Source of the DNA: an uncultured virus (IMG/VR IMGVR_UViG_3300030116_002442)
Taxonomy: Duplodnaviria > Heunggongvirae > Uroviricota > Caudoviricetes
Direction: 5' to 3' (one strand)
DNA: 20,000 nt
IMG/VR virus record: IMGVR_UViG_3300030116_002442
Below, in pieces: positions 1,417 to 14,545 of the stretch. The notes under the pieces were generated by a model. The model did not search any database. It was given only the letters and a program-made list of their open reading frames with translations, and had not been told where the DNA came from. The first letter of the stretch is position 1. Every line of letters begins with the position of its first letter. The position numbers were made by a program, and so were the translations under genes.

Positions 1417-1419
1417 ATC

Positions 1420-3240
1420 TTAATTTTTAAATGGAATTAATCTACCACCTTCCTTTTTGTAGTAAACAAATCCCAAAGTTTCACCCTTTGCTTCTTTTTC
1501 TCTTGCCTGTAATTGAAATACATCAATATTATGAATTAAACACAATCCAAAAGCTATAGCCCTATCCGTGTTTCTTGTTCCATAATCAGACAACTCATTT
1601 AACAATTCTATGAACCATATATCATCAACATTTGTTTTAATATAATCGTCCATGTACTGCTCCATAACGGCCTTGGTTTGTTTATTCATTTGTAAACCAT
1701 ATCTATTTCTAGTTAAGGTACCAGGCGCGTGTGCAGTTTTGGGTTTTTCTTTCATATATTTAAGAGCTTTATTTCTCTTAAAATAATCTATTATCCCAAT
1801 TCTTGTATACTCTATGAGCATTTTAGCATTATAATATACAGCTAATTTTAAACATCCATCCCAGAATTCTTCTGCTGTTTTAGGTCTTTCTGTATACTCA
1901 GCAATAATATAATCACTTGGTATTTCAGTAGAAACAAATCTTCTGTATATCAAAGCGCTTCCCATAGAAGCTGTAGATTCTGCAGTATCTTGGTCATAAG
2001 AATCAATACCACCAATGTCTAAATTATCATATTCTAACATTGGATGTTCTAATATTTTATACGGACCATTTTTATCTGCTATCCATTCTACATTATCAGT
2101 AAATCCATCTTCATCATCAAACACCCATTCCAATCTACCATGTTGTATTTGATTTTGAAATTTAGTGTGACTCATTATTCTGCCTCTTTGAGCGTTAATA
2201 AGTGATAAATCAAATCTACTTCCTTTAGTCTTTAAAAATGCTTCCTCTACTGTTAGAGGGTAGTTTTGTATATGTAAATTATAAGCTTTACTATTATCTC
2301 TACCTTCTAGCTTTTCTCTTTCTTTTAACAACTCTTTTCTTGCGCCCACTTCGTCACTTTCTCCAGTTTTTAAATCAAAAAAACCATAATAACATACAGA
2401 AGCAGGTATAAATAAAGGAATTAAATTAAATGAATCTGCATTGTAATACATTTCCATAAAATCTTTAGATGAGGTTTCTATATCACCACCCGTTCCTCCA
2501 ATTACAGGAACTCCAAATTGTATATTACCATCCATAAAACAAGCTTTTGATGACATATAAGCATTTAGCAACTCCTTGAACTCACCAGCTTCTTCAAATA
2601 TCATTACACTTAAACGTTCACCTTTAAAAACTTCTGGATTAGACATTGTTCTACAATGTATAGCAGATTGATAACCTCCTATATTCCATTTACCATCTTT
2701 TGTTTTTTGTTTATATCCACTTTTAACCACATCCGAAGTATCTTTCAATACTGAATGTTTAAAGTTATTATGCTGTGCATTTAAACCTTTTTTCACTTTG
2801 TCAAAGAACGAATCTGCAGTAACTTGTAATCCTGCAGCTATTCCTACCTCATTATAAGGATAGAATGTGTATTCGTGAGCACATAATGCAGAATTCATAT
2901 AACTAAAACCTTTATCTCTGGCTTTTATTACAATCATTCCCTTTTGCTCATCTTTACATTGCTCAAAGGTATCAAAATATAGTTTATCTAAATCTCTATA
3001 CCACGGAGCAATTAAAGTTTTTCTGTTTCCAGATTCTTCTCCACTATTACCTAAAATTCTATAAAAATTTAAGTAATAATAATGCTTTCCTGTTATCTTA
3101 TCCATTCCCTTTGGCTTGTAGCCATTCTTACACCTATGTATTTGCTCTTCCCAATACTCTTGATAAGAAACTGACTCTGGGTCTAAATCGGGTATACCCT
3201 CATAGACTATAGGAGCATATTTCTTTATGTTCTTAGACAT
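1420..3240 (-). CDS. terL: Terminase large subunit, crAss-like
   Basis: 606 aa. Walker A-like KARDKGFSY, Walker B MIFEEAG, coupling motif GGTGG, nuclease motifs GGIDSYDQD and DRAIAFGLCL. The N-terminal ITGKHYYYLNF is typical of crAss-like TerL. Confidence 0.93.
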   Translation of the reverse strand: MSKNIKKYAPIVYEGIPDLDPESVSYQEYWEEQIHRCKNGYKPKGMDKITGKHYYYLNFYRILGNSGEESGNRKTLIAPWYRDLDKLYFDTFEQCKDEQKGMIVIKARDKGFSYMNSALCAHEYTFYPYNEVGIAAGLQVTADSFFDKVKKGLNAQHNNFKHSVLKDTSDVVKSGYKQKTKDGKWNIGGYQSAIHCRTMSNPEVFKGERLSVMIFEEAGEFKELLNAYMSSKACFMDGNIQFGVPVIGGTGGDIETSSKDFMEMYYNADSFNLIPLFIPASVCYYGFFDLKTGESDEVGARKELLKEREKLEGRDNSKAYNLHIQNYPLTVEEAFLKTKGSRFDLSLINAQRGRIMSHTKFQNQIQHGRLEWVFDDEDGFTDNVEWIADKNGPYKILEHPMLEYDNLDIGGIDSYDQDTAESTASMGSALIYRRFVSTEIPSDYIIAEYTERPKTAEEFWDGCLKLAVYYNAKMLIEYTRIGIIDYFKRNKALKYMKEKPKTAHAPGTLTRNRYGLQMNKQTKAVMEQYMDDYIKTNVDDIWFIELLNELSDYGTRNTDRAIAFGLCLIHNIDVFQLQAREKEAKGETLGFVYYKKEGGRLIPFKN

Positions 3241-3242
3241 AT

Positions 3243-3419
3243 TTAATCTTTTTGTCCCTCTATTGCTTTTTTCTCTTCTGGTAACCTTGCTTCACTTAAT
3301 TTACCACCTACTTTAAAAAATGTTTCCATTCTTTTTTTATGTGCTTTTAACTTATCTTCTTCTATAAAATTATCTCCGTCTCTAACGTACTTAGTACCAT
3401 TTATTTTTATCTTATTCAT
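3243..3419 (-). CDS. Hypothetical protein, 58 aa (MNKIKINGTKYVRDGDNF...AIEGQKD)
   Basis: Manual ORF that fills the gap. Its start overlaps the upstream stop (ATGA) and its stop lies 2 nt before the TerL start. Confidence 0.7.
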   Translation of the reverse strand: MNKIKINGTKYVRDGDNFIEEDKLKAHKKRMETFFKVGGKLSEARLPEEKKAIEGQKD

Positions 3420-3943
3420 ATCTTAGATTTTATATTCATTTGCTCTTCTAAGTAACTCATTTTAGCCTCTCCTTTTATTTTCTTTCTTTCTCCTCTTCTT
3501 TCTATTGCATCTAATAATTTTTGTCTAGTGTTTAATACTTTCTCTACACCTATCATTATTTTTTGCATACTTTCAGCATTATCTTCATTAATCTTCACAT
3601 TCTTCATTAGCTGAGTGTACTCATCTATCTTTTCATTAAAAGCTATTAGTTGAGCGTCTAATGGGTCAAACTGTAGCTCTTTATATTTTTTAATTGCGTT
3701 AGCAATTTTTTCGTTTCTAATACCTTTCCAATTATAAGTATCAAACACAGCTTTACTTACTGACTTTACTTGTTCTCTCTCTACAAAGTGCCTATAAGGA
3801 GAATCATAATCACATACTAAAGCCACCCATAATATTCCTTTCAACCCAAATTCTTCTACTACCTCTCTAAACTCTTCAATAGCATACAAACCATCGTCTG
3901 TTTCTATAATTTCCCCCCGCTTATCAATGTTTAGTAAATACAT
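3416..3943 (-). CDS. Conserved protein upstream of TerL; possible terminase small subunit
   Basis: 175 aa, helical/coiled-coil C-terminal half, DYDSPY motif, position upstream of TerL. Function is inferred from position. Confidence 0.55.
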   Translation of the reverse strand: MYLLNIDKRGEIIETDDGLYAIEEFREVVEEFGLKGILWVALVCDYDSPYRHFVEREQVKSVSKAVFDTYNWKGIRNEKIANAIKKYKELQFDPLDAQLIAFNEKIDEYTQLMKNVKINEDNAESMQKIMIGVEKVLNTRQKLLDAIERRGERKKIKGEAKMSYLEEQMNIKSKI

Positions 3944-3944
3944 A

Positions 3945-4418
3945 CTATGTTGTTGTGTTTAACGCTACAAACAATTCTAATTTACAAGTAGCTGTATTAG
4001 CAAGTGCAGTAATAGTCTCTATATCTATTTGTGTAGCACTTGAGTCATGAGCGGCGTCACTTGTAAAAAATTGAGGGTGTTCTGTTGATGTATTTGGTGT
4101 TGCAAGTATAAAGCTTCTACCAGCATCTAACCTAAAAGCGGCAACGGAAGCAGTTGAACTTTCTTTTTCTATACCTATTGTTATAAAATTTGTTGTATCT
4201 AAATTTGTTAATCTTACATATTCTACATCGTCTTGGTCTAAAGTTGATATACCAGCTGCGGCAGATGCAAATGTTAATAAGTTTATTTCAGAAGTTGGCA
4301 CCTCTACAATAGTTTTTAAACATTGAGTGATACCAGCAATAGACTTAGTTTGTGTGGAATTAAATTTTTGACCATTTAACGAAAGGGTCTCTGTAACTGT
4401 AGTTGTTAATGTAGCCAT
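3945..4418 (-). CDS. Putative virion protein, paralog family A (copy 1)
   Basis: 157 aa, Thr/Ala/Ser-rich, beta-strand pattern. Shares YVR(L/I)T and K(L/V)ELF(V/I)A motifs with the neighbouring gene. Confidence 0.6.
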   Translation of the reverse strand: MATLTTTVTETLSLNGQKFNSTQTKSIAGITQCLKTIVEVPTSEINLLTFASAAAGISTLDQDDVEYVRLTNLDTTNFITIGIEKESSTASVAAFRLDAGRSFILATPNTSTEHPQFFTSDAAHDSSATQIDIETITALANTATCKLELFVALNTTT

Positions 4419-4426
4419 ATGTTATA

Positions 4427-4885
4427 TTATTTTGCGTCAGTACTTGCTATAAACAATTCAACCTTTCCTTTACCTCTCACACAATATGCTTTAACAGAAT
4501 CTATATCTTTCAAAGCAGTATAATCTGCAGCATCTATACTATCTCCTTCAGCAAATGTTGATAATGTATGAGAGTATATGTAATAAGATTCTCCTTGTGA
4601 TAGTTCGTAAAGTTTACAAAGGTCGCCTTCGCTATTTACTTCTACAATCATAGGTTCAGCACCTAAGCTTGTTATTCTAACATATTTAACAGCTCCATCG
4701 TCAAACACACCTCCGCTTACAGTATCTGCATGTGTAGTGTATAAAGTTGTTACAGTTCCTTGTTTAAAAGAAAATACTCTTTCGTGAACATCAGTAATGT
4801 TTGGTATTTGTAGCGTCTTTACGTTTCCGTAACTTTTTCCTTGGACACGAACTTTTTCAGTATGGGTTATTGTAAGTATAGACAT
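4427..4885 (-). CDS. Putative virion protein, paralog family A (copy 2)
   Basis: 152 aa, collinear similarity to 3945..4418. Confidence 0.6.
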   Translation of the reverse strand: MSILTITHTEKVRVQGKSYGNVKTLQIPNITDVHERVFSFKQGTVTTLYTTHADTVSGGVFDDGAVKYVRITSLGAEPMIVEVNSEGDLCKLYELSQGESYYIYSHTLSTFAEGDSIDAADYTALKDIDSVKAYCVRGKGKVELFIASTDAK

Positions 4886-5178
4886 TATTTTTTTATTTTA
4901 AATTTTAGTTTCCATACACCATGTTCTACATATGTGTATGATTCATTAACATATTCTCCTGTGTCGTAATTTAAATAGGTTTCATAACCTTCATATACGC
5001 CTCCCCCTACATATGATATAGATTTATCGGCTATTTTATAACCTTTATCTATTAAATTCATTATTATATCATCTTCTTTTTTTACGATAGATGAAAACTC
5101 TTTAAAAAACGTGTTATGATACAATTCACCCTTAAGCGTCTTGTATATAGACCCGTATTTTGTTTTTTCTAAAAACAT
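4885..5178 (-). CDS. Hypothetical protein, 97 aa
   Basis: ORF tightly packed with the downstream gene; TAnnTTTG box 4 nt upstream of the ATG. Confidence 0.7.
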   Translation of the reverse strand: MFLEKTKYGSIYKTLKGELYHNTFFKEFSSIVKKEDDIIMNLIDKGYKIADKSISYVGGGVYEGYETYLNYDTGEYVNESYTYVEHGVWKLKFKIKK

Positions 5179-5182
5179 TACT

Positions 5183-5190
5183 CAAAGATA
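5183..5190 (-). promoter_or_regulatory. Bacteroidota-type -7 promoter box (TATCTTTG)
   Basis: Matches TAnnTTTG, AT-rich upstream, 4 nt before ATG 5178. Confidence 0.7.
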
Positions 5191-5208
5191 TGAAAATTTA
5201 ATGACATG

Positions 5209-5805
5209 TTAATTTCTGTTTGTAGAAATAGATGTTAACACTTTATCAACACCAACTACATAAGGTATATCTCTTGTGTTTTTACCTTCTGAGCTTAAAA
5301 TTATGTCATTGTTTTTTATCTCTCTAAACTCTTTATTTAAAAATATTAATACTGGTAAATGCTCTCCTTCGTCTATAGTTAACCTTACTTCGTCTATCAT
5401 TCCAGCAGTTCTTTCAAAAAACAAAGATAATGTAGTGTTATTGTAAGCTGCTGAACCCACAAAAGTATTTATAGGATATGAATACACATAGTCTTCTGTT
5501 AATAAAGTTCTTTCTACAAATACATTATAAGGTTTTTTTTCAAAATCATTTACTACATCATCACTTATTGTGTTAGTTACTGTTACTCTAGTAGCAATAG
5601 TTGATGCAGATACAGTTCCTATAGTTTTTTTAGTTCCTTCATCATTAATATATTTTACAACATCTCCTAATTTTAATTTTTTTGTTGACCAATCCACATA
5701 ACCTGGGTCAGTGTCTTCCCAATATTGATTAATAAGGTTGCTTGTAACTGTAGATTTACCTAATTTTATTATAGTGGAATTATATGAAAATATTATATGA
5801 TACAT
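5209..5805 (-). CDS. Hypothetical protein, paralog family B (with a large N-proximal insertion)
   Basis: 198 aa. The C-terminal half (YPINTFVG...LSLFF...VRLTI...KEF) matches the family-B pattern. Confidence 0.65.
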   Translation of the reverse strand: MYHIIFSYNSTIIKLGKSTVTSNLINQYWEDTDPGYVDWSTKKLKLGDVVKYINDEGTKKTIGTVSASTIATRVTVTNTISDDVVNDFEKKPYNVFVERTLLTEDYVYSYPINTFVGSAAYNNTTLSLFFERTAGMIDEVRLTIDEGEHLPVLIFLNKEFREIKNNDIILSSEGKNTRDIPYVVGVDKVLTSISTNRN

Positions 5806-6107
5806 TATTTTGTAACTATTTTAGTAAACGAACCTACAGCAGTCACATCTTGTACGTCATACCTTTCTTCTAAATCAGAAAATACTATTACTGATTCTGA
5901 AGATGTGTTAAATATCTCAGCAATAGATTTTATTACCCTTTCCCCTCTACCGCTAGTAACTGTTAAAGGTATTCTGTAAGAAAGTGGCGCTTTTTCAAAA
6001 TACAAATCTACTAGTATAGCTGAATTGTACTTGCCACCCATAAAATGCCTTACTGGTAATAGTAAATAATCTGATTCGGTGTTTACAAACAATACGTGTC
6101 TTTCCAT
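5805..6107 (-). CDS. Hypothetical protein, paralog family B (minimal form)
   Basis: 100 aa; LPVRHFMG...VDLYF...IPLTV...EIF. Confidence 0.65.
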   Translation of the reverse strand: MERHVLFVNTESDYLLLPVRHFMGGKYNSAILVDLYFEKAPLSYRIPLTVTSGRGERVIKSIAEIFNTSSESVIVFSDLEERYDVQDVTAVGSFTKIVTK

Positions 6108-6111
6108 TATG

Positions 6112-6119
6112 CAAATATA
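6112..6119 (-). promoter_or_regulatory. Bacteroidota-type -7 promoter box (TATATTTG)
   Basis: TAnnTTTG, 4 nt before ATG 6107. Confidence 0.7.
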
Positions 6120-6121
6120 CT

Positions 6122-6150
6122 AAAAAAAACAGGAGGCCAGAAAGACCTCC
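6122..6150 (-). terminator. Intrinsic terminator
   Basis: Minus strand reads GGAGGTC-TTTCT-GGCCTCC followed by TGTTTTTTTT. Confidence 0.75.
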
Positions 6151-6183
6151 CATCCCATGAAAACTGAACTAAGAAAAGAACTA

Positions 6184-6191
6184 CAAAGATA
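6184..6191 (-). promoter_or_regulatory. Bacteroidota-type -7 promoter box (TATCTTTG) with no downstream ORF before the terminator
   Basis: Shares TTCATATCTTTG with the promoter at 5183-5194. Confidence 0.6.
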
Positions 6192-6204
6192 TGAATTATT
6201 TTTT

Positions 6205-6561
6205 TTATCGTTTTCCGCCAAAATATTCCTTTGCAAATCCTTCCTTAACTAATAAATCGTTTACGCTAATATACTCATTTTCTTTTTTTATGAATAATTC
6301 TCCTAACACCCTACCAAACTTACCCTTACCATGAGACTTCATAATTATATTATCTTCTTCTAACATTTCTATTAACCTTTCTTTAGAAGCAAGACCTCTA
6401 GCTTTTTCTTCTAAATCTCTTGTTCTACTTTCAGGAGCGTTTATTCCATACATTCTTATTCGCCTTTTAATGTGAGTGTTAAAACCTAAGTCAATCATAA
6501 CATCTAATGTATCACCATCAACTACCCTGTCTATCTTTACTCCATAATTGTATTTTTCCAT
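6205..6561 (-). CDS. Thermonuclease (staphylococcal nuclease-like) family protein
   Basis: RVVDGDTLDV, RIRMYGINAPES and GKFGRVLG motifs. Confidence 0.9.
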   Translation of the reverse strand: MEKYNYGVKIDRVVDGDTLDVMIDLGFNTHIKRRIRMYGINAPESRTRDLEEKARGLASKERLIEMLEEDNIIMKSHGKGKFGRVLGELFIKKENEYISVNDLLVKEGFAKEYFGGKR

Positions 6562-6562
6562 A

Positions 6563-6652
6563 TCACAAGTTTATATCGTCGGGCGCCTGGTCTATAATGT
6601 GTTTCTTTAACCAAACGCGCAAGCGTTTTAAAAATTTTTTATACCAACCCAT
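6563..6652 (-). CDS. Small basic/amphipathic peptide, 29 aa (MGWYKKFLKRLRVWLKKHIIDQAPDDINL)
   Basis: Manual ORF that fills the gap. The ATG abuts the upstream stop, and the stop is 1 nt before the nuclease start. Confidence 0.6.
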   Translation of the reverse strand: MGWYKKFLKRLRVWLKKHIIDQAPDDINL

Positions 6653-7390
6653 TTAATACACAGCTACTATAGTTACCCCTCCTCCGTATACCTCTTCTCC
6701 ATTTGCTTGTGCTAATTCTATTAATAAATAATTTGTTTCATCCGCAGTAACATCTGTAATATCTATTGCTGTACCTATGTTACCTGTTCCTCTACTTGTA
6801 ACTGTTTTGCTATTTATATCTGCTTCGTATACTGTAACTGCAGATGTTGCGCTACCATATATATTAACTACAGTAGCTTTAAAACCCTTTGGTATAGTTA
6901 CAGAAGCATATAGTGGGGCGGTAGAAAAAGACTCTACCCACCTATCACTACCAGTGTCATCTATCATTACAGGTCTACCTACATCATCTGCTATAAAGTC
7001 TCTTGGTAATATTTTTATAAGATTTCTACTTCCATGCCAGCCATTATCATGACTATTACCCGAACTATACGTCCAACTTAAATCTGATATATGTGATGAT
7101 GGGAATGTTGAGGTAGCTGTATTAAATTCTATGTATATGTTGTCTCCTGTAGAAAATTCTTTAGTTATATCTTCTAATACCTCTTTATGTTTGTTATTAG
7201 TTATAGTAAGCGTAACAGCAAAATTATTCATACCTTTAGTATCTGTATTTTCTACTAAGGGTGTAAAATATAAATTTAACTCATTATCAGCATTAGGGTG
7301 AGCTCCTGTAAAATTATCTAATGGCACAAATACTTCACCTTCTGTTTGATTGTTTGTAGCACTTTTATTTAATAGTATAAATTTTCTCAT
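6653..7390 (-). CDS. Paralog family B domain fused to a C-terminal beta-rich domain; possible virion/receptor-binding protein
   Basis: N-terminal VPLDNFTG...LNLYF...VTLTI...KEF. The C-terminal ~130 aa begin at GWHGSRNLIKILPRDF and are beta-rich. Confidence 0.6.
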   Translation of the reverse strand: MRKFILLNKSATNNQTEGEVFVPLDNFTGAHPNADNELNLYFTPLVENTDTKGMNNFAVTLTITNNKHKEVLEDITKEFSTGDNIYIEFNTATSTFPSSHISDLSWTYSSGNSHDNGWHGSRNLIKILPRDFIADDVGRPVMIDDTGSDRWVESFSTAPLYASVTIPKGFKATVVNIYGSATSAVTVYEADINSKTVTSRGTGNIGTAIDITDVTADETNYLLIELAQANGEEVYGGGVTIVAVY

Positions 7391-7749
7391 TATGTATCTT
7401 GTATATTTACAGTTATAGAAAAAATACTAGTAACACCAGCAATAGAATACTTACCACTTACATCGTCACCTATTTCTATTAAATAATTTTCACCATTAGA
7501 AAACTCTTCCATAATAGCTCTAAATACAGTTCCAGATGACCCAGTTGATGTGTTTATCACTACATTATCAGTGGCAGTATTAGCAGTAGATTTAAACTCA
7601 TGCATGCATTTAAAGTTTAACATTACCATTGTAGAGTCTATAGTATAACCGCCTTCAAATCTACTCAAAGGATATAAACAAGAAGAAGTTTGGTCGTCGT
7701 CGTCAGCTACATTAGCTACATTTCTAAAGTATACATATTTATCATTCAT
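7390..7749 (-). CDS. Hypothetical protein, paralog family B
   Basis: 119 aa; YPLSRFEG...VMLNF...VVINT...EEF. Confidence 0.65.
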   Translation of the reverse strand: MNDKYVYFRNVANVADDDDQTSSCLYPLSRFEGGYTIDSTMVMLNFKCMHEFKSTANTATDNVVINTSTGSSGTVFRAIMEEFSNGENYLIEIGDDVSGKYSIAGVTSIFSITVNIQDT

Positions 7750-7753
7750 ACAT

Positions 7754-7761
7754 CAAATTTA
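7754..7761 (-). promoter_or_regulatory. Bacteroidota-type -7 promoter box (TAAATTTG) heading the late module
   Basis: TAnnTTTG, 4 nt before ATG 7749, with an A-tract upstream on the minus strand. Confidence 0.7.
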
Positions 7762-7904
7762 CAAAATTTTTATTTTTTTTATTTTTTTAGTGTAGGCACG
7801 TTTCTGTGAAGGTCTATATTGTTACGCCCCCACCGTCTCTCATTCTTCAAACCCCCGAGGCCTCAACATAACATCTGTCTATGTAACATAAAAAAGGATT
7901 GTTA

Positions 7905-7929
7905 GTTTTGCTGTTCTGTATTGTATTAA
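7905..7929 (+). repeat. Early-region motif copy 1 (GTTTTGCTGTTCTGTATTGTATTAA)
   Basis: 23/25 identical to 8486-8510; core also present at 8874, 9664 and 11304. Confidence 0.75.
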
Positions 7930-7945
7930 CTAAAACTATATTACT

Positions 7946-8191
7946 ATGAACAAGTTATTTATTTATTTACCATTAGGTTATGTTATATTAGGATGGACTA
8001 TATTCTTATCATGTCTTGTCTTCACAGAACCTAACTACCAAGCGTTACTAATATTACTACTATGTATTATGTTAGTAAAGTATTACCTATTCTATGCTAT
8101 CAAATATGTTAGACAATCAGAGAAAGATGAGATAGAATGGAAAGAATATCTTAAAGAATTAAAAGAATTAAGAGAAAAGAGGGACATTTAG
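7946..8191 (+). CDS. Small membrane protein, two predicted TM segments plus a charged C-terminus
   Basis: 81 aa with two hydrophobic stretches; followed by a terminator. Confidence 0.75.
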   Translation: MNKLFIYLPLGYVILGWTIFLSCLVFTEPNYQALLILLLCIMLVKYYLFYAIKYVRQSEKDEIEWKEYLKELKELREKRDI

Positions 8192-8203
8192 TCCCTTTTT
8201 TTT
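8180..8203 (+). terminator. Intrinsic terminator
   Basis: AGGGAC-ATTTA-GTCCCT followed by a T-run. Confidence 0.8.
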
Positions 8204-8396
8204 ATAAAAGGTTGTACCTGCGGTACGATTTGTTTAATATTTGTTATAAAAACGAGTGTATGTGTACAAGTATGAACCACTATATTCTGCCATTATCACT
8301 ACTATGTGTTACTCAGTGTGTTACATGCGTTATGTTGTTCTGTACTATTTAGGTAATTAGTATTGTTATGCTGTGCTTGTTGTCCCACACCCGCCC

Positions 8397-8425
8397 AAGT
8401 TACGAAAAAAAAATGACATTGTCAA
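8397..8425 (-). promoter_or_regulatory. sigma70-like promoter TTGACA-N17-TAACTT overlapping a TGACATTGTCA palindrome
   Basis: Perfect -35 hexamer, 17-nt spacer, 4/6 match at -10; inverted repeat at 8414-8424. Confidence 0.5.
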
Positions 8426-8485
8426 GTCTATTCTTAAGTATTTATGCTACTTCATACTATTTAGATGTTCTGTCTGTTATGTATT

Positions 8486-8510
8486 GTTTTGCTTTTCTTT
8501 ATTGTATTAA
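8486..8510 (+). repeat. Early-region motif copy 2 (GTTTTGCTTTTCTTTATTGTATTAA)
   Basis: Near-identical to 7905-7929; directly precedes a structured element. Confidence 0.75.
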
Positions 8511-8513
8511 TAC

Positions 8514-8594
8514 TGATAAACCTCTTCTATAGGTGCTAATTGATTGAAAGATATTAGCTATATAGTTTGTTCAGATGAGCAAAGGGGTTTATCA
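8514..8594 (+). ncRNA. Candidate structured RNA, 3-way junction
   Basis: P1 TGATAAACCTC/GGGGTTTATCA; P2 CTATA/TATAG plus GCTAAT/ATTAGC; P3 TTTGTTC-AGAT-GAGCAAA. Confidence 0.5.
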
Positions 8595-8610
8595 TATCAT
8601 TCATAAGTAA

Positions 8611-8702
8611 GGATTAGTCAGTAGCCTAACTAACAACTGAAGACACCGAGATGTGGATAAACTATAATCTAAGGTTACGCCCTCTCACCTTAAGCAGAGG
8701 GC
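8611..8702 (+). ncRNA. Candidate structured RNA: hammerhead-like element followed by an H-type pseudoknot
   Basis: GTC...CTGAAGA-CAC/GTG-GATAAAC with TAGT/ACTA pairing; then interleaved stems TAAGGT/ACCTTA and GCCCTCT/AGAGGGC. Confidence 0.35.
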
Positions 8703-8724
8703 ATTATATTTTAGCTATGAAAAT

Positions 8725-8871
8725 ATGAGTCTAAATAAATCAGTACTTGTAGTCATATTGTGGTTTGCAATGTGTCTATTTGTTTTAACATCACTATCAT
8801 CATGCAGTACAAGTAAAATCAACTCATGTTGGGACAGTAATGGTAAAACTAAAAATGGTATATACAAATAA
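8725..8871 (+). CDS. Small lipoprotein, 48 aa (MSLNKSVLVVILWFAMCLFVLTSLSS-CSTSKINSCWDSNGKTKNGIYK)
   Basis: Manual ORF with a basic N-region, hydrophobic h-region and lipobox LSS-C. Confidence 0.65.
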   Translation: MSLNKSVLVVILWFAMCLFVLTSLSSCSTSKINSCWDSNGKTKNGIYK

Positions 8872-8873
8872 TT

Positions 8874-8891
8874 GTTTTGCCGTTCGTTATT
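8874..8891 (+). repeat. Early-region motif copy 3 (GTTTTGCCGTTCGTTATT)
   Basis: Starts 3 nt after the stop at 8871, upstream of ORF 8946. Confidence 0.7.
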
Positions 8892-8945
8892 ATAGGTTTT
8901 GTTTGCTCGCCTTGAAGAGTAATATTAATTTAATTTTATTAAGCT

Positions 8946-9527
8946 ATGACAACATTAGCAAATTTTAAAAAGCTTGAAAATGTTTCAAGTGTACCTGTAG
9001 AGTATATGGATAGAACTCCAGGTATTAAAACAGGGGTATTAGATACTCTTACACCATCATTTACATACAAAATGTACAATGGTATTGATAAAAATGGTAA
9101 CATAAAAACTACCGAGCCTAAGCCATATGATATGGCAGATATCGTTCTTATTGAAAGACGAAAAGATAAAACTGGCCAATGGTATGACAAAGAATTACCT
9201 ACATTCTCAATGAACTTTAAATCTGTAGAACAATCTGACAACAGGGTTACATTTTATTCCATGTTATTCAGAAATTGTACATCTAAAGACATTGTTAATG
9301 AAATGTCCACAGGTAAATTAATCAAATCTAAAGCTTTCGTTAGTATTCTAAATGCTAATGATATACAACCTAATCAGTTTGTAGATATGGTTAAAAACCT
9401 AAAAACACCTATCTCGTTTGCTCAATACAAGCGTGATAATGGACAACTAAACTTCGTTGATGTAGATTACTACAACGAAAACAAAGCACAATCTTCTAAT
9501 GCTACTACAGAAGAACCTGTGTTTTAA
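8946..9527 (+). CDS. Hypothetical protein with an SSB-like acidic C-terminal tail (…TTEEPVF)
   Basis: 193 aa with a flexible linker and acidic-Pro-x-Phe end; has its own upstream motif and terminator. Confidence 0.75.
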   Translation: MTTLANFKKLENVSSVPVEYMDRTPGIKTGVLDTLTPSFTYKMYNGIDKNGNIKTTEPKPYDMADIVLIERRKDKTGQWYDKELPTFSMNFKSVEQSDNRVTFYSMLFRNCTSKDIVNEMSTGKLIKSKAFVSILNANDIQPNQFVDMVKNLKTPISFAQYKRDNGQLNFVDVDYYNENKAQSSNATTEEPVF

Positions 9528-9530
9528 TTC

Positions 9531-9563
9531 TAAGGGGGACTTCATCGTTCCCCTTATTTTTTT
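9531..9563 (+). terminator. Intrinsic terminator
   Basis: TAAGGGGGAC-TTCATC-GTTCCCCTTA followed by T7, directly after the stop. Confidence 0.85.
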
Positions 9564-9663
9564 AACCCCTGTCAGCACAGGGGAGCTTAGCCCTACCAAT
9601 CGACGGCGTGGGCGCGCTTAGTCACTATCATGCACGGTAGTGTGCCAATAGGTACAATTATTT

Positions 9664-9681
9664 GTTTGGCTGTTCTTTGCT
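9664..9681 (+). repeat. Early-region motif copy 4 (GTTTGGCTGTTCTTTGCT)
   Basis: Matches the core GTTTKGCYDTTC; upstream of ATG 9717. Confidence 0.65.
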
Positions 9682-9716
9682 TGTTGTTTTTTGTTTAACC
9701 TTTAATACTTTATGCT

Positions 9717-9824
9717 ATGAATATAGAAATTAATTCTGAGGACATGATTATATTGTCCTTGTACAACGAAAATAATGTAAATGAAGATATGTTTGATACC
9801 TTTGTGTCAAGCTATATCTCATAA
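9717..9824 (+). CDS. Small acidic peptide, 35 aa (MNIEINSEDMIILSLYNENNVNEDMFDTFVSSYIS)
   Basis: Manual ORF with the same leader (TTTAACCTTTAA…TTTATGCTATG) as ORF 10690. Confidence 0.6.
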   Translation: MNIEINSEDMIILSLYNENNVNEDMFDTFVSSYIS

Positions 9825-9829
9825 TTAAA

Positions 9830-10127
9830 TAAACGATAATCCATGGGTGATAATACATATTTAACAGAAAAGTGCTTGCACGAAGTAATTAACTATGTAT
9901 ATATGATGGTAGGAGCGACCAAAGCGGTGGCGGTTGTTTGACGTTAGGTGCACACTTGTTAGGGCCAATATCACAAAGCTCTTTAGAAACTCTTAGGCAA
10001 GGGACAGAAAGCCCCCTACATTTATTTGTATGGGTAAGTAATTATCTTGAACGATTAGACTCAAGAATTGAGAAAAAAAACTGGGCCACTCCTATTAATC
10101 GACAGACCACATTCTCCGTATCGTTTA
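9830..10127 (+). ncRNA. Candidate ~300-nt multi-domain ncRNA
   Basis: Closing stem TAAACGATA/TATCGTTTA; internal long-range pairs TAGGA/TCCTA plus GTGGC/GCCAC; several hairpins; no convincing ORF. Confidence 0.5.
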
Positions 10128-10136
10128 ACTTGTAAG

Positions 10137-10227
10137 ATAAGACTATTAGGTTGCAGAACAAGATACTTGTTGGTAGTGTATACTACATTGGAGGATAAAT
10201 ATCCTTTTTCTGTAGCCAATGTCTTAT
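10137..10227 (+). ncRNA. Candidate structured RNA, 4-way junction
   Basis: ~19-bp closing stem enclosing three 5-bp hairpins. Confidence 0.55.
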
Positions 10228-10251
10228 TATTTTTTAATTAATACTTATAAC

Positions 10252-10581
10252 ATGAAAAAATTACTTAAATCAATTAATTTATTGATAGCTGATTATCTTT
10301 CAGGTAAAGATATGGCTATCATACCTAAATCAGAACTCACTTTATTTATTAAACAATGTGAAGATGATGTACATTCCTTAAAACATGAAGTTCAAAACAT
10401 AACTATAGATGGCGAAAGTGTTACAAGAATGATACAAGATGAAGTTATAAATGCTTTAGAGTTTCGTTCTTATGACCTTGAACAATATATAGAAGGCTGT
10501 GGTTCGTGTGATGAGGTAATCACAGATTTAAAATCAAGAATAAATGAGTTTAAAACTAAAAACAATTTACGTAAAAATTAG
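10252..10581 (+). CDS. Hypothetical protein (start re-assigned to MKKLLKS)
   Basis: The track start at 10219 lies inside the 4-way junction stem. ATG 10252 has the TTAATACTTATAAC leader seen at other early genes. Confidence 0.7.
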   Translation: MKKLLKSINLLIADYLSGKDMAIIPKSELTLFIKQCEDDVHSLKHEVQNITIDGESVTRMIQDEVINALEFRSYDLEQYIEGCGSCDEVITDLKSRINEFKTKNNLRKN

Positions 10582-11894: not shown

Positions 11895-12075
11895 TGAAAT
11901 GCGCAATGGTATTCCTTGGGAAGCCATTGAAGATTACTATGATATGTTAGAGGAGCCTGAGTGGTTTTACTTCCATTGCTCTGATAATGTGTCGTATGAA
12001 ATTACCAGTAAAGGAGAAACCTTTGCTGATGAAAAATTATTAACTAAAAAATTATATAAAAAATGTGTGGATTAG
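11881..12075 (+). CDS. Hypothetical acidic protein, 64 aa
   Basis: Overlaps both neighbours by 13-14 nt. Confidence 0.65.
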   Translation: MKINDEMRNGIPWEAIEDYYDMLEEPEWFYFHCSDNVSYEITSKGETFADEKLLTKKLYKKCVD

Positions 12076-12977
12076 TAGGATTTAGTGGTAAAGCTGATAC
12101 AAGTGTATTTAAAGCTTTACATTTATTAGCAGATAATGACAGTAGGGGCGGACACTCTTCAGGATTATTTGCAAATGGTAAAATATACAAGACTGTTGAT
12201 GAGTCTATGAATATATTACCTATGCTTAAAACTAGCGTAACTGGTAGTGTTCTTATTGGACACACTAGATATGCAACTCACGGTAAACATACTGTTGAGA
12301 ACGCTCACCCTTATCAATATAATAACATTGTAGGAGCACACAATGGTGTATTATCTAATTATGAAGAGGTGGGTAAAAAGTTTAATATTAAAAAGACCAC
12401 CGTTGACTCTCAAATGATATTTAAATTACTTGCACAAGAAAAAGACGACAACCATTTAGGTTTATTTAGTGGTGCTAAGAATGTTTTATTTACCAAAGGA
12501 GACAACAAGCTTTATGTATACCGTAGAGATAACCCATTGTTTTACTTAGAAACAGAGGAGGGTATATATGTAAGTTCTTTAGAAGAAGGTCTTAAAAATA
12601 TTAAGAAAAAGAACGAAGTTGTAATAGAAGTTCCAGAAAATAAATTATTTACATTAGAAAATGGCAAGATTGTAAAAACAAAGAAAATTAAACATAAACC
12701 AATCGCATCTAAATCTACTGTAAATACAGACTGGAGAAGCTATGGTGGATACACTCCAAGAAGTGAGCTCTATGGTAATTACACTTATGACAGTTATGGT
12801 GGTTATGATTTTCAAGAAGAAGATGATAAGCTACAAGAACAAGAGTTTGAACAACTTGCAGATTTTGCTGACTTTGTGCATGAATTGTATTGTACTGACA
12901 GATTTACTGATACAGAGCAACACAAGCTTATGGAATTGTATAACTTTTTAAACACTTATGCTTATGAGTACTATTAA
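12063..12977 (+). CDS. Class II (Ntn) glutamine amidotransferase
   Basis: N-terminal MCG (catalytic Cys2), RGGHSSG, GHTRYATHG, NAHPY, HNGVLSN and VDS motifs. Confidence 0.92.
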   Translation: MCGLVGFSGKADTSVFKALHLLADNDSRGGHSSGLFANGKIYKTVDESMNILPMLKTSVTGSVLIGHTRYATHGKHTVENAHPYQYNNIVGAHNGVLSNYEEVGKKFNIKKTTVDSQMIFKLLAQEKDDNHLGLFSGAKNVLFTKGDNKLYVYRRDNPLFYLETEEGIYVSSLEEGLKNIKKKNEVVIEVPENKLFTLENGKIVKTKKIKHKPIASKSTVNTDWRSYGGYTPRSELYGNYTYDSYGGYDFQEEDDKLQEQEFEQLADFADFVHELYCTDRFTDTEQHKLMELYNFLNTYAYEYY

Positions 12978-14316
12978 AGAAAAATTAGTTGAATGTGTAT
13001 GTGGTAATCATTTTCCTATTGAAGAGGTTGTAGACCTTTATGGTGGAGGTTATGTTCATAATGAAGAATTAGATGATTATGTACAATTAGATGAATCTTG
13101 TGGGGAATCTCAACTTAGTAACGGTGGACTTTGGTGCCACATACACGATACTATAGAAGTTGATTGTGACAGCAGCTATTATCCTGCAGAAAACTATCAT
13201 GACTTTGACATTGACTGGTGTCATGCTAATGAAACCTATATGTATACAGATAATATGTACTGGGGGTATGTTAGTAGAAGAAATGAGGGTTGGTTCTGTA
13301 ATGAAAGTACTGATTATGTTTATTCAGAACGTGATGATGTGTATTTTATGGACTGCGATATAGCTCGAGATAGAGACTATGAATATTGTGAATCATCAGA
13401 TGATTATCTGCATGTAGATGACATAGAAAACTCAGGAAGCGAGTGGGATAACACTAGCGACACAGCTAATCTATGTAAAAAGTATAGAAAAACTTTTGGT
13501 ATGCCATATACTTTTGGTGTAGAAATAGAAACTAGCGATGGTTACTTAGAATTTGATAGCAGCCTAAATGTTAAAGCTGTATACGATGGTAGTATAAACG
13601 GTAAAGAATATGTTACTGGTTGTATGTCAGGTGATGGAGGTGTTAATATGTTACAGAGAATATGCCAAAAAATTAGTCATACTTGTTATGTAGACTCTAG
13701 TTGTGGCGTTCATGTTCATATAGGTGGTGCTAACTTCAATAGAAGATTTAGTATATTATCTGTTATGTTAGGTGTAATGCTTGAGACGCAAATATTTTCT
13801 ATGATGCCTCCATCAAGAATGAAGTCTAGTTATTGTTTGAAAATACCTGATAAGTTCTATAAGTTAAGAACTATTAACAAAAGACTATACCCAAGAACAT
13901 ACAAAAGAATGTTAAATTTATTAGCAGAGTATGTTCATGTTGAAGGGTCTGAGTTTTCTAAAAACAATAACAAAAAACTTTCTCATCCAGGTGGTAGGTA
14001 CGCTAGTTCTAGATATAAGTGGTTAAATCTAAATAACTGTAGTTATAATAGAACTGGCCCTAATACCATTGAATTCAGGTGTCATAGTGGCTCTAAAGAT
14101 TTCACTAAAATATATAATTGGTTATTAATATGTATGTGTTTTGTGAAGTATGTAGAGAATAATTCTAGAGACATTATAAATTCATACAATGATTGGATTA
14201 AGGGGCATGTTAGTAAAAGAATAACACTGGATACAATTATAAAAGCTGGACTTGGTAAAAAATCTGATTTCTTGATACAATACATCAACAACAGAATGGA
14301 AAAGTTTTCAGGTTAA
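12958..14316 (+). CDS. Putative amidoligase (COOH-NH2 ligase, glutamine synthetase-like fold) with an acidic repeat N-terminus
   Basis: TFGVEIE, DGSI, EYVT, SCGVHVHIG, RYKWLN and TIEFR motifs; adjacent to the GATase-II. Confidence 0.85.
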   Translation: MLMSTIKEKLVECVCGNHFPIEEVVDLYGGGYVHNEELDDYVQLDESCGESQLSNGGLWCHIHDTIEVDCDSSYYPAENYHDFDIDWCHANETYMYTDNMYWGYVSRRNEGWFCNESTDYVYSERDDVYFMDCDIARDRDYEYCESSDDYLHVDDIENSGSEWDNTSDTANLCKKYRKTFGMPYTFGVEIETSDGYLEFDSSLNVKAVYDGSINGKEYVTGCMSGDGGVNMLQRICQKISHTCYVDSSCGVHVHIGGANFNRRFSILSVMLGVMLETQIFSMMPPSRMKSSYCLKIPDKFYKLRTINKRLYPRTYKRMLNLLAEYVHVEGSEFSKNNNKKLSHPGGRYASSRYKWLNLNNCSYNRTGPNTIEFRCHSGSKDFTKIYNWLLICMCFVKYVENNSRDIINSYNDWIKGHVSKRITLDTIIKAGLGKKSDFLIQYINNRMEKFSG

Positions 14317-14329
14317 TCGCTGCTCAATT

Positions 14330-14456
14330 AAGTGTGTGTAATAGTTATTTAAAATATATCTTGTCCGTAACTATGTGCGGCCCGTGATTCCGCGCACACA
14401 CTTTAACATAAGGTTTAGATTAGGCCTAGAGCTGAATACTCTATCAACCAATCTAA
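14330..14456 (+). ncRNA. Candidate structured RNA: 3-way junction plus an interrupted hairpin
   Basis: AAGTGTGTGT/GCACACACTT enclosing ATAGTTAT/GTAACTAT and GCGG/CCGC; then TTAGATT/AATCTAA with TAGAG/CTCTA. Confidence 0.5.
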
Positions 14457-14460
14457 TAAT

Positions 14461-14493
14461 ACCCCTACTATTTGGCGTGTAGGGGTTCCTTTT
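14461..14493 (+). terminator. Terminator-like hairpin
   Basis: ACCCCTAC/GTAGGGGT followed by TCCTTTT. Confidence 0.6.
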
Positions 14494-14530
14494 GTTGATA
14501 ACTTTTTTTTATTATTAACAATTATTAATA

Positions 14531-14538
14531 TAAATTTG
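14531..14538 (+). promoter_or_regulatory. Bacteroidota-type -7 promoter box (TAAATTTG) heading the replication module
   Basis: TAnnTTTGCA, 7 nt before ATG 14546. Confidence 0.7.
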
Positions 14539-14545
14539 CAACCTC

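What the first reader, a model, noticed from the sequence alone, without database searches (positions are those of the whole stretch)
9830..10127. Candidate ~300-nt large structured ncRNA of unrecognised family
Seen: the ends pair perfectly (TAAACGATA 9830-9838 / TATCGTTTA 10119-10127). Domain 1 has ATACATA/TATGTAT, TTAA/TTAA and TGCTT/AAGTA. Domain 2 is closed by TAGGA (9910) and GTGGC (9927) pairing with the contiguous GCCAC-TCCTA (10085-10094). It contains TAGG-caa-GGG/CCC-CCTA and TCTTGA/TCAAGA hairpins. A possible pseudoknot joins GGTTGTT (~9932) to GACAGACC (~10101). GC is higher than in the flanks and there is no credible CDS. It lacks the signatures I know for tmRNA, RNase P and group I/II introns. 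Inference: a new phage large ncRNA or ribozyme-sized RNA.
Basis: partly seen in the sequence, partly recalled or inferred. Interest (0 to 1): 0.8.

Follow-up and report, generated by a model that had tools for sequence, protein, structure and literature searches.

The report
Swappable non-coding cassette in phage early transcript
The 300-base stretch is a discrete, dispensable, apparently non-coding insert that sits between a tiny early phage gene and its terminator, at a spot where related marine phages carry other, clearly folded RNA cassettes; its own fold is unproven.

Summary
A near-identical strain lacks it, which defines a 303-nt insertion at 9826-10128. The perfect 9-bp closing helix lies within 4 nt of both ends (chance about 3-7 in 10,000).

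It lies in the untranslated tail of a 35-codon early gene (9717-9824), upstream of a conserved long hairpin plus T-run (10136-10235). Related marine phages, probably of Bacteroidota, carry zero to three other stem-closed cassettes (A, B, C, D) at this site, joined by CTTATAA-type linkers. Those cassettes fold far better than shuffles and show compensatory changes and plus-strand-only G-U pairs.

The window's cassette (W) does not share that signal:
- Fold energy equals that of shuffles (z -0.1 to +0.4; interior +1.2 to +1.6).
- No sequence variation was found to test covariation.
- No RNA run holds it.
- No Rfam, tRNA or tmRNA match.
- Its 80-codon open frame lacks ATG, phage codon usage and relatives.

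Verdict: W is a new, probably RNA-level accessory cassette of a swappable array. A "large structured ncRNA or ribozyme" is not shown.

The parts
9531..9566 (+). Intrinsic terminator of the upstream 193-aa gene (8946-9527)
   Evidence: 10-pair stem 9531-9556 followed by a T-run. The same layout is seen in relatives.
9569..9586 (+). Conserved leader hairpin CCCCTGT-CAGC-ACAGGGG
   Evidence: Read. L023 has CCTCTGT/ACAGAGG, with both sides changed. L024 and L034 are identical to the window. L029 and L030 have CCCTGT/ACAGGG. Judged by eye, not counted by a tool.
9621..9643 (+). Conserved motif (T)TCACTATCAT..ATGCACGGTAGTG, promoter- or operator-like and itself a hairpin (CACTATC/GGTAGTG)
   Evidence: Present in every relative, including the distant L029 and L031. 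Found once or twice per phage record. Its function is inferred only.
9656..9700 (+). T/G-rich stretch with repeated TTTG just upstream of the small gene; possible Bacteroidota-type promoter
   Evidence: Sequence read and conserved in character in relatives. The promoter consensus (-33 TTTG, -7 TAnnTTTG) is recalled, not tested. The sigma-70 scan found nothing here.
9717..9824 (+). Small early gene, 35 codons, acidic product (MNIEINSEDMIILSLYNENNVNEDMFDTFVSSYIS)
   Evidence: Six of 7 differences in the X14 variant fall on third codon positions (positions worked out by hand). All 3 differences in L023 are synonymous (by eye). Relatives carry a 65-codon acidic gene in the same place. No Pfam or PHROG family matched.
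9826..10128 (+). Cassette W, the finding: a 303-nt optional insert
   Evidence: Ends come from the empty-site contig X13 record 7, which matches the window through 9825 and then runs on with the CTTATAAGATAAGG... hairpin sequence that stands at 10129 onward here. W is identical in L022. It is near-invariant in 4 runs. No copy was found elsewhere.
9830..9838 (+). 5' arm of the closing helix
   Evidence: (I19).
10119..10127 (+). 3' arm of the closing helix
   Evidence: (I19).
9893..10135 (+). 80-codon open frame inside W (TTG at 9938 and 9956, no ATG or GTG); probably not a gene
   Evidence: Only one relative was found, P0001, a variant of the same element. Codon score is 0.076 bits per codon against 0.38-0.75 in 18 of 18 genes. 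GC by codon position is flat at 0.40/0.43/0.35.
10129..10135 (+). Linker CTTGTAA (CTTATAA in relatives), the junction sequence that recurs between cassettes
   Evidence: Junctions read.
10136..10228 (+). Conserved extended hairpin H: basal arms 10136-10157 and 10209-10228, variable apical insert 10158-10208
   Evidence: 20 pairs kept in 9 of 9 sequences. G-U pairs occur at 3 positions that would be C-A on the other strand. One position reads UG:3, CG:3, UA:3. z is -5.0 to -8.7.
10230..10235 (+). T-run after H; with H it forms the likely terminator of the small-gene transcript
   Evidence: Sequence read. H is kept whatever gene follows it. Termination is inferred.

Best explanation
W (9826-10128) is an optional, single-copy, non-coding cassette. 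It sits in the 3' untranslated part of a small early gene of a marine phage whose host is probably a member of the Bacteroidota.

Shown:
- The cassette is a clean 303-nt presence/absence difference between near-identical strains, with no target-site duplication.
- It is bracketed by its own 9-bp helix.
- It lies between the stop codon of a gene under purifying selection and a conserved plus-strand hairpin with a T-run.
- At the same point, relatives carry none, one, two or three other stem-closed cassettes (A, B, C, D), always in the order A, B, C, D, joined by CTTATAA-type linkers.
- Cassettes A-D and the terminal hairpin have RNA-type signatures. Cassette D is 98.6-99.4% identical in three phage backgrounds whose neighbouring small gene is about 86% identical (measured for one of the three pairs).

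Inferred:
- W is transcribed on the plus strand, together with the small gene, from a promoter near 9656-9700 to the terminator at 10136-10235.
- Its closing helix folds it as an insulated domain of that RNA.
- Cassettes are exchanged between co-infecting relatives by recombination at the short linkers and the conserved hairpin. These phages encode Sak4, an exonuclease, NinB and RusA.
- The cassette acts at the RNA level as an accessory function. My leaning is a trans-acting or decoy RNA released at the AU-rich linkers, used in host takeover or counter-defence. Simple protection of the early message against degradation is the second choice.

W's own internal structure, its expression and its function are not shown.
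For: - Phage context and strand: portal and terminase on the minus strand, replication and recombination genes on the plus strand. The nearest terminases belong to crAss-like, Flavobacterium and Cellulophaga phages, all below 60% identity (the 15 listed rows 27.5-29.7%).
- Empty site and exact ends: X13 record 7.
- Closing helix at those ends: p about 2.5e-4 to 7e-4.
- Array composition, from 13 sequences that span the site (window, 5 IMG/VR loci, L022-L028; L025, L027 and L028 look like repeats of L014, L013 and L008): W in 2, D in 3, C in 7, A in 8, B or B' in 6. One Logan contig is empty.
- Cassettes are single-copy per phage record. D has one full copy in 1 of 4 records and A+C have one place each in 4 of 4. 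W occurs once in the 20-kb window.
- RNA signatures in sister cassettes: z -1.9 to -4.7 for A, B, C and D, and -5.0 to -8.7 for H.
- Cassette C has 41 pairs with 97.4% of cells paired and 3 pairs with compensatory change. Slid controls give 36-53% paired and 0-1 such pairs.
- Hairpin H has 20 of 20 pairs kept in 9 sequences, with plus-strand-only G-U pairs.
- D is 98.6-99.4% identical across L023, L026 and L034, against 85.9% for the adjacent small gene between L026 and L034.
- W is not a known RNA.
- W is probably not a gene.
- The one diverged W copy (P0001) implies, by the most sparing reading, G9963>A. That turns a G-U pair of the hairpin 9961-9965/9978-9982 into A-U. Two further changes fall in that hairpin's loop (inference).
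- Precedent: two long early intergenic regions of the Cellulophaga phage phi14:2 are transcribed above most genes and stay abundant, function unknown (bioRxiv 10.1101/2020.03.07.982082, passages read).
Against: - W lacks the thermodynamic signal that all its sister cassettes have. Its interior is predicted to be ill-defined.
- No covariation can be counted for W, because the copies in L022 and in 4 runs are identical or differ by one letter or one inserted base.
- Transcription is not shown.
- W contains an 80-codon open frame that ends in the linker's TAA. A 32-codon ATG frame overlaps its TTG by TTGA. Together they span nearly the whole cassette, which a non-coding reading leaves to chance (my rough estimate for the long frame is about 0.06).
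- W never occurs together with A-D, so its membership of their class rests only on position, closing helix and linker.
- The proposed function is a guess from context.
Confidence: 0.5

Rival explanations
1. W is neutral or selfish DNA: an inverted-repeat-ended insertion or recombination debris lodged in a harmless place between a stop codon and a terminator, with no RNA function. It is transcribed only because of where it sits.
For: - It has terminal inverted repeats.
- It is dispensable: an empty-site strain coexists in the same run.
- It has no fold-energy signal.
- Sister cassette D spreads between backgrounds almost unchanged, as a mobile element would.
Against: - There is no target-site duplication at the W junctions (one search compared).
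- It is single-copy: once in the window. Cassettes A, C and D occur once per phage record, including a 94%-complete 62-kb record.
- Five cassettes with five different end sequences all use one site and keep a fixed order, which is hard to explain by independent transposition.
- No transposase or recombinase lies nearby.
- GC is raised in a 30% GC genome.
- The sister cassettes carry compensatory changes.
Confidence: 0.25
2. W is a small protein-coding cassette, an orphan accessory gene. It would encode a 65-residue product from TTG 9938, possibly coupled to, or once fused with, the 32-codon ATG frame 9843-9941.
For: - The open frame of 80 codons ends in the linker TAA. Together with the ATG frame it covers 9843-10135.
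- A gene caller predicted a 59-residue protein on a variant copy, 54 of 59 residues identical.
- Hypervariable phage regions usually hold small orphan genes.
- AlphaFold2 on the single sequence predicts a helix at residues 26-47.
Against: - The long frame has no ATG or GTG.
- Codon score is 0.076 bits per codon, below all 18 genes tested (0.38-0.75).
- GC is flat over codon positions (0.40/0.43/0.35), whereas 21 of 25 genes have GC3 of 0.15-0.28 and the other four 0.28-0.37.
- No relative exists other than the same element, in the word-indexed search of 5.8 billion cluster representatives. An exhaustive HMMER pass over 1.84 billion representatives gave one further row, P0002, at E 1.5e-4, 618 aa, five short stretches; I take it for noise but did not inspect it.
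- No Pfam or PHROG family matched.
- The language-model recognition score is 1595, below the 2300 that 91 in 100 real proteins reach.
- Mean pLDDT is 61 and pTM 0.37.
- One contig carries a 1-base insertion behind 9969 that would break the frame. Its depth is 2.9, so it may be an error.
Confidence: 0.15
3. W is a diverged member of a known RNA class (group I or II intron, tmRNA, RNase P, 6S, self-cleaving ribozyme, riboswitch).
For: Its size, closing helix and raised GC resemble such RNAs.
Against: - No Rfam 15 match at gathering score in the window.
- Nothing but three noise hits at E up to 10 in 9400-10400, none inside 9868-10127.
- ARAGORN found nothing.
- W does not interrupt a gene or an RNA gene.
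- The sister cassettes in relatives also have no Rfam match.
Confidence: 0.03

Closest known systems
Early intergenic 'long non-coding RNAs' of the crAss-like Cellulophaga phage phi14:2 (bioRxiv 10.1101/2020.03.07.982082; passages read)
   Same: Gene-free stretches in the early arm of a marine Bacteroidota phage, on the strand of the early genes. In phi14:2 they are transcribed above most genes from the earliest time point and stay abundant. Their function is unknown.
   Different: - No sequence similarity: blastn of W, A, B, C, D and H against phi14:2 bases 1-9000 gave only short matches at E 0.026 or worse.
- The flanking proteins are unrelated.
- Part of the phi14:2 gene-free region is a tmRNA gene, which W is not.
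- Expression of W is untested.
PeSL (promoter-early stem-loop) cassettes of T4-type phages (PMC2839356, PMC4122927; search listing and the start of the abstracts seen; details recalled)
   Same: Short conserved motifs at module borders in hyperplastic early regions. Closely related phages gain, lose and replace whole modules at these motifs.
   Different: PeSLs flank small protein genes and combine a promoter with a stem-loop. Here the swapped units themselves are non-coding and stem-closed, the border is a 7-8 nt linker, and the whole array lies inside one 3' untranslated region.
Miniature inverted-repeat elements and transcribed palindromic repeats (MITEs, ERIC, Correia; recalled)
   Same: Inverted-repeat ends, a size of 100-350 nt, a position between stop codon and terminator, and folding as RNA when transcribed.
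   Different: No target-site duplication. Single-copy. Fixed order of different cassettes at one site.
Modular structured 3' untranslated regions of RNA viruses, such as flavivirus xrRNA and dumbbell elements (recalled)
   Same: A row of self-contained folded RNA modules between the stop codon and a terminal hairpin. The number and type of modules vary between relatives.
   Different: Different kingdom and genome type. No sequence or demonstrated fold similarity. Nuclease resistance not tested.

Membership tests
Any Rfam 15 family (including tmRNA, RNase P, 6S, group I/II introns, small ribozymes, GOLLD, ROOL, HEARO, IMES, manA) | Covariance-model score at or above the family's gathering score | tested here: not met
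   0 matches in the whole window. In 9400-10400 at E up to 10 there were only TtnuCD3, DapZ and AfaR, at 15-20 bits against gathering scores of 56-100.
tRNA / tmRNA | ARAGORN detection | tested here: not met
   0 genes in the window and 0 in 7 related loci. The method does find the tmRNA of phi14:2.
Group I intron | Interrupts a gene or RNA gene; terminal G at the 3' end; conserved core | tested here: not met
   W lies after a stop codon and before a terminator. Its 3' end is ...CGTTTAA, with no G. No Rfam hit.
MITE / inverted-repeat transposon | Terminal inverted repeats | tested here: met
   9-bp perfect repeat, 4 nt and 1 nt from the ends.
MITE / inverted-repeat transposon | Target-site duplication | tested here: not met
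   The empty site reads ...CATAAT|CTTATAAG... and the filled site ...CATAAT|W|CTTGTAAG.... No flanking duplication.
MITE / inverted-repeat transposon | Many copies per genome | tested here: not met
   W occurs once in 20 kb. Sister cassettes occur once per phage record. The rest of the window's genome is not held.
Stem-closed cassette array of this locus (A, B, C, D) | Sits between the small early gene and hairpin H; closing helix at the cassette ends; CTTATAA-type linker at the 3' side | tested here: met
Stem-closed cassette array of this locus (A, B, C, D) | Fold energy well below shuffles | tested here: not met
   W has z -0.11 (plus strand). A-D have z -1.9 to -4.7. The W interior has z +1.2 to +1.6.
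Stem-closed cassette array of this locus (A, B, C, D) | Compensatory base changes | not testable with these tools
   All DNA copies of W are near-identical.
Protein-coding gene | Canonical start, genome-typical codon usage, relatives with protein-type conservation | tested here: not met
   TTG only. 0.076 bits per codon. Flat GC over codon positions. No relatives beyond the same element. No family.
Intrinsic terminator (for hairpin H at 10136-10235) | Stable hairpin followed by a U-run on the transcribed strand | tested here: met
   20 conserved pairs plus TTTTTT. The simple scan did not list it because its loop is long. Termination itself was not tested.
Transcribed RNA | Reads from RNA libraries covering the element | not testable with these tools
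   None of the 24 listed runs is on record as RNA.

The most novel reading that the evidence does not exclude
A clade of marine Bacteroidota phages keeps, in the tail of its first early message, a slot for a library of interchangeable folded RNA cassettes (A, B, C, D, W). These are traded almost unchanged between phages that are otherwise 15% or more diverged. They would be RNA-only accessory 'morons' that act in host takeover or counter-defence, with W as a new, so far orphan, member.
Probability: 0.3. Interest if true: 0.8.

Novelty: new variant of a known kind. Interest (0 to 1): 0.5.

Why it matters
Accessory functions of phages are almost always sought among small proteins. This locus may hold them as RNA instead:
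- The variable units are non-coding, each closed by its own helix.
- They are present or absent between strains that coexist in the same samples.
- In one case (D) a unit is far better conserved than the neighbouring gene.

If the cassettes are functional RNAs, they would give a handle on the unexplained abundant early non-coding RNAs of Bacteroidota phages. They would also add an RNA layer to the arms-race loci of marine viruses.

For W itself the value is more modest. It is a well-delimited orphan sequence whose RNA-level role still has to be shown.

Tried and rejected
- **Known RNA families:** Rfam at gathering score and at loose E-values, on the window and 9 related loci, and ARAGORN. Nothing relevant.
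- **More W copies:**
  - blastn against 50,697 phage records gave no match.
  - Three W 20-mers against IMG/VR gave 0, 0 and 0.
  - One 20-mer against 185,579 species genomes gave 3 hits that are 20-23-nt chance matches.
  - blastn and nhmmer against all held loci found only the window and L022.
That scan found the array, but no cap was left to fetch the contig behind P0001.
- **Expression:** no RNA holder listed among 24 runs. All four runs laid were DNA contigs.
- **Covariation in W:** not possible.
- **Multi-copy element:** rejected.
- **The TCACTATCAT motif as a repeated promoter:** the second window site (14664) lies inside a gene and is probably chance.
- **Shared motifs between W and the other cassettes:** only a 10-mer shared with D, within chance expectation.
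- **Homology to the phi14:2 early region:** none.
- **Published catalogue of 10,006 viral structured RNAs (PMC10690425):**
  - The abstract and outline were read.
  - 6 supplementary files were searched for four motif strings and one sample number: 0 occurrences.
  - Files 1, 2 and 4 could not be searched, so prior listing there is not excluded.
- **Literature searches** found no description of this array.
- **Earlier-findings look-ups** by place and by sequence found nothing.
- **A 32-residue query** was too short for the protein search.
- **Diversity-generating retroelement template, type III antitoxin repeats, integron attC:** considered from memory and dropped. There is no reverse transcriptase and no second copy in 20 kb, the units are not identical tandem repeats, and the junctions do not fit the attC core.

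Full report
**Setting**

- The window is an AT-rich phage of about 30% GC. Portal and large terminase lie on the minus strand (1-3240). From 7946 onward, a plus-strand arm carries DnaB-type helicase, Sak4, NinB, RusA and exonuclease genes.
- Its terminase is only distantly like those of crAss-like, Flavobacterium and Cellulophaga phages: all 207 matching records are below 60% identity and the 15 listed lie at 27.5-29.7%. Its genes lack Shine-Dalgarno leaders. The host is therefore probably a marine member of the Bacteroidota. This is inferred.
- Runs that hold the stretch are all labelled marine or seawater metagenomes or viromes.
- The finding lies in a 725-nt gap between a 193-aa gene (8946-9527) and a 109-aa gene. 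The true start of that second gene is 10252, not 10219.

**Observation**

- The end pairing, the domain 1 helices and TAGGA/TCCTA are present and dominate the predicted ensemble. GTGGC/GCCAC, TGCTT/AAGTA and the TAGG-GGG hairpin do not.
- GC is raised.
- The fold as a whole is no more stable than dinucleotide shuffles. z is +0.37 for 9830-10127 and -0.11 for 9826-10128. The interior folds worse than shuffles (z +1.2 to +1.6).
- The minus strand is not convincing either (z -1.4 to -1.6).

**What the surroundings show**

Relatives were reached in three ways: through the downstream gene, through a conserved 17-mer, and through an alignment of the upstream gene. All share the same gap plan. In order, it is:
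1. the terminator of the upstream gene;
2. a GC-rich leader with a conserved hairpin and the motif TTCACTATCAT..ATGCGCGGTA;
3. a T/G-rich stretch;
4. a small acidic gene;
5. a variable non-coding part;
6. a conserved long hairpin H (AAGATAAGACTATTAGG...CTGTAGCCAATGTCTTATT) with a T-run;
7. the next gene, which differs between phages.

The small gene has 35 codons in the window, L022 and L023, and 65 codons elsewhere.

The variable part is built from discrete units. Each is closed by its own helix and followed by a CTTATAA-type linker:

| Cassette | Approx. size | Closing helix |
|---|---|---|
| A | 58 nt | CAGGGTG/CACCCTG |
| B, B' | 85-115 nt | CAGGG/CCCTG |
| C | 112-165 nt | AAAGAAGGCAGT/ACTGCCTTCTTT |
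| D | 349 nt | ATAATAAAAAGAGAG/CTCTCTTTTTATTAT |
| W | 303 nt | TAAACGATA/TATCGTTTA |

Compositions seen:

| Composition | Loci |
|---|---|
| A | L008, L028 |
| A+C | L015 |
| A+B+C | L013, L014, L025, L027 |
| B'+C | L024 |
| B'+D | L034 |
| A+C+D | L026 |
| D | L023 |
| W | window, L022 |
| none | one contig of run X13 |

- The order A, B, C, D is never broken.
- Distant relatives (L029, L031) keep the leader motif and a small gene but have no array.

**The ends of W**

- X13 record 7 matches the window from 9567 to 9825, with 4 other letters and 1 gap. It then runs straight into CTTATAAGATAAGG..., the start of H.
- W is therefore an exact 303-nt insertion (9826-10128) without flanking duplication, and it is dispensable.
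- The perfect 9-bp helix lies 4 nt and 1 nt inside these independently fixed ends. This happened in 0.025-0.069% of 100,000 shuffles.
- Run X14 holds both a W copy and a D-type copy of the locus. Run X13 holds both W and the empty form. The site is therefore polymorphic within natural populations.

**Are the cassettes RNA?**

- For the sister cassettes the evidence is good. Fold z-scores are -1.9 to -4.7 for A-D and -5.0 to -8.7 for H.
- GNRA and UUCG loops are visible in A, B and D (read by eye).
- In C, 97.4% of 190 cells pair and 3 of 41 pairs show compensatory change. Controls slid by 1-3 columns give 36-53% paired and 0-1 such pairs. Nine of 500 shuffles reach the observed covariation (only 5 sequences).
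- In H, all 20 pairs are kept in 9 sequences. G-U pairs occur at three positions, and one position reads U-G, C-G and U-A three times each. These pairs exist only on the plus strand.
- The small gene is real. Six of 7 differences in the X14 variant fall on third codon positions, and all 3 differences in L023 are synonymous.
- Together this points to one plus-strand early transcript: small gene, then cassettes, then terminator H. Transcription itself is not shown.

**Is W like them?**

- By position, closing helix and linker, yes. By fold energy, no. By covariation, unknown.
- All DNA copies are the same: L022 is identical. In four runs from three studies there were 0 differences, 0 differences, 1 other letter and 1 inserted base over 160-581 nt.
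- The only diverged copy is a 59-residue gene call, P0001, with 54 of 59 residues identical.
- Read most sparingly, P0001's five changes are: G9963>A, which turns a G-U pair of the hairpin 9961-9965/9978-9982 (p 0.53-0.63) into A-U; two changes in that hairpin's loop; one at 9989; and one in the last base of the cassette. This fits an RNA hairpin, but it is thin and inferred.

**Coding rival**

Frame 9893-10135 is open for 80 codons. With the ATG frame 9843-9941 it spans the cassette. Against a gene:
- It has no ATG or GVG start.
- Its codon score of 0.076 bits per codon is below all 18 genes tested.
- GC is flat across codon positions.
- No relative other than P0001 turned up in two very large protein searches. 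The only other row, P0002 at E 1.5e-4, I take for noise.
- There is no family and no language-model support.
- The structure model is indifferent (pLDDT 61).

I give the coding rival 0.15.

**Mobility**

- D is 98.6-99.4% identical in L023, L026 and L034. The small gene next to it is 85.9% identical between L026 and L034, and the upstream cassettes differ outright.
- Cassettes are single-copy per phage record.
- There is no target duplication, and five different end sequences use one site.
- This fits exchange by recombination between relatives, at the linkers and at H, better than transposition. The mechanism is inferred.

**Comparison with what is known**

- No Rfam family fits.
- The nearest precedent is experimental. 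In the Cellulophaga phage phi14:2, two long early intergenic regions are transcribed above most genes and persist, with function unknown (passages read).
- Those regions are not similar in sequence to this locus. One of them contains a tmRNA gene by ARAGORN and Rfam.
- Module swapping at short border motifs is known from T4-type phages (PeSL, listing only), but there the modules are genes.
- Earlier notes of this scan describe similar swappable folded-RNA cassettes in other marine phages. I treat them as leads. One of them led me to the phi14:2 paper.

**Verdict**

- The claim that it is a large, ornately folded RNA or ribozyme is not supported by energy statistics and cannot yet be tested by covariation.
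- The more interesting result is the locus: a slot for interchangeable, mostly well-folded RNA cassettes in the tail of an early phage message. W is an orphan occupant of that slot.

Noticed in passing
window 9717-9824: An unlisted 35-codon acidic gene with no basic residues. Natural variants differ almost only at third codon positions (6 of 7 in X14; 3 of 3 synonymous in L023). Relatives have a 65-codon acidic gene in the same place. As a small acidic first-early protein it is a candidate host-takeover or anti-restriction factor; that is a guess.
   Followed up: partly
window 9569-9586 and 9621-9643: The leader holds a hairpin with a both-sides change in L023 (CCCCTGT/ACAGGGG against CCTCTGT/ACAGAGG). 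It also holds the motif TTCACTATCAT..ATGC.CGGTA, which is conserved even in relatives only 36-38% identical in the upstream protein. The motif can itself form a hairpin, so it may be an early promoter or operator.
   Followed up: partly
L023 3400-3748; L026 2478-2826; L034 480-828: Cassette D (349 nt, rich in GNRA and UUCG loops, z -2.5 to -2.9) is 98.6-99.4% identical in three different array contexts, while the neighbouring gene is about 86% identical. It has no Rfam match. It is a better candidate for a large structured phage RNA than W.
   Followed up: partly
window 10158-10208 (and the same place in L008, L014, L024, L034): The tip of the conserved terminator hairpin H carries variable inserts of 24 to about 77 nt that are themselves small hairpins. 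This is a second, nested level of modularity.
   Followed up: no
L041 (NC_021806) 4031-4502: The gene-free early region of Cellulophaga phage phi14:2 contains a tmRNA gene. ARAGORN gives tag GSSVQKLAMVA, and Rfam tmRNA scores 46 bits against a gathering score of 47, E 1.4e-16. No RNA gene is among the features listed for bases 1-9000 of this record. It may be one of the two 'long non-coding RNAs' of unknown function reported for this phage. I did not check the paper's coordinates.
   Followed up: partly
window 10219-10581: The mechanical ORF starts at 10219, inside the terminator hairpin. Relatives show that the gene starts at ATG 10252 (109 aa). L008 and L028 lack this gene altogether and go straight to the next one.
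   Followed up: yes
window 14317-14545: A second gene-free stretch with GC-rich hairpins, GTGTGCG..CGCACAC and ACCCCTAC..GTAGGGGT followed by a T-rich run, lies ahead of the replication-initiator-like gene.
   Followed up: no
window 12063-14316: An adjacent glutamine amidotransferase-like gene and amidoligase-like gene (PHROG matches at 7e-31 and 3e-20). The pair suggests a phage-encoded modification pathway.
   Followed up: no
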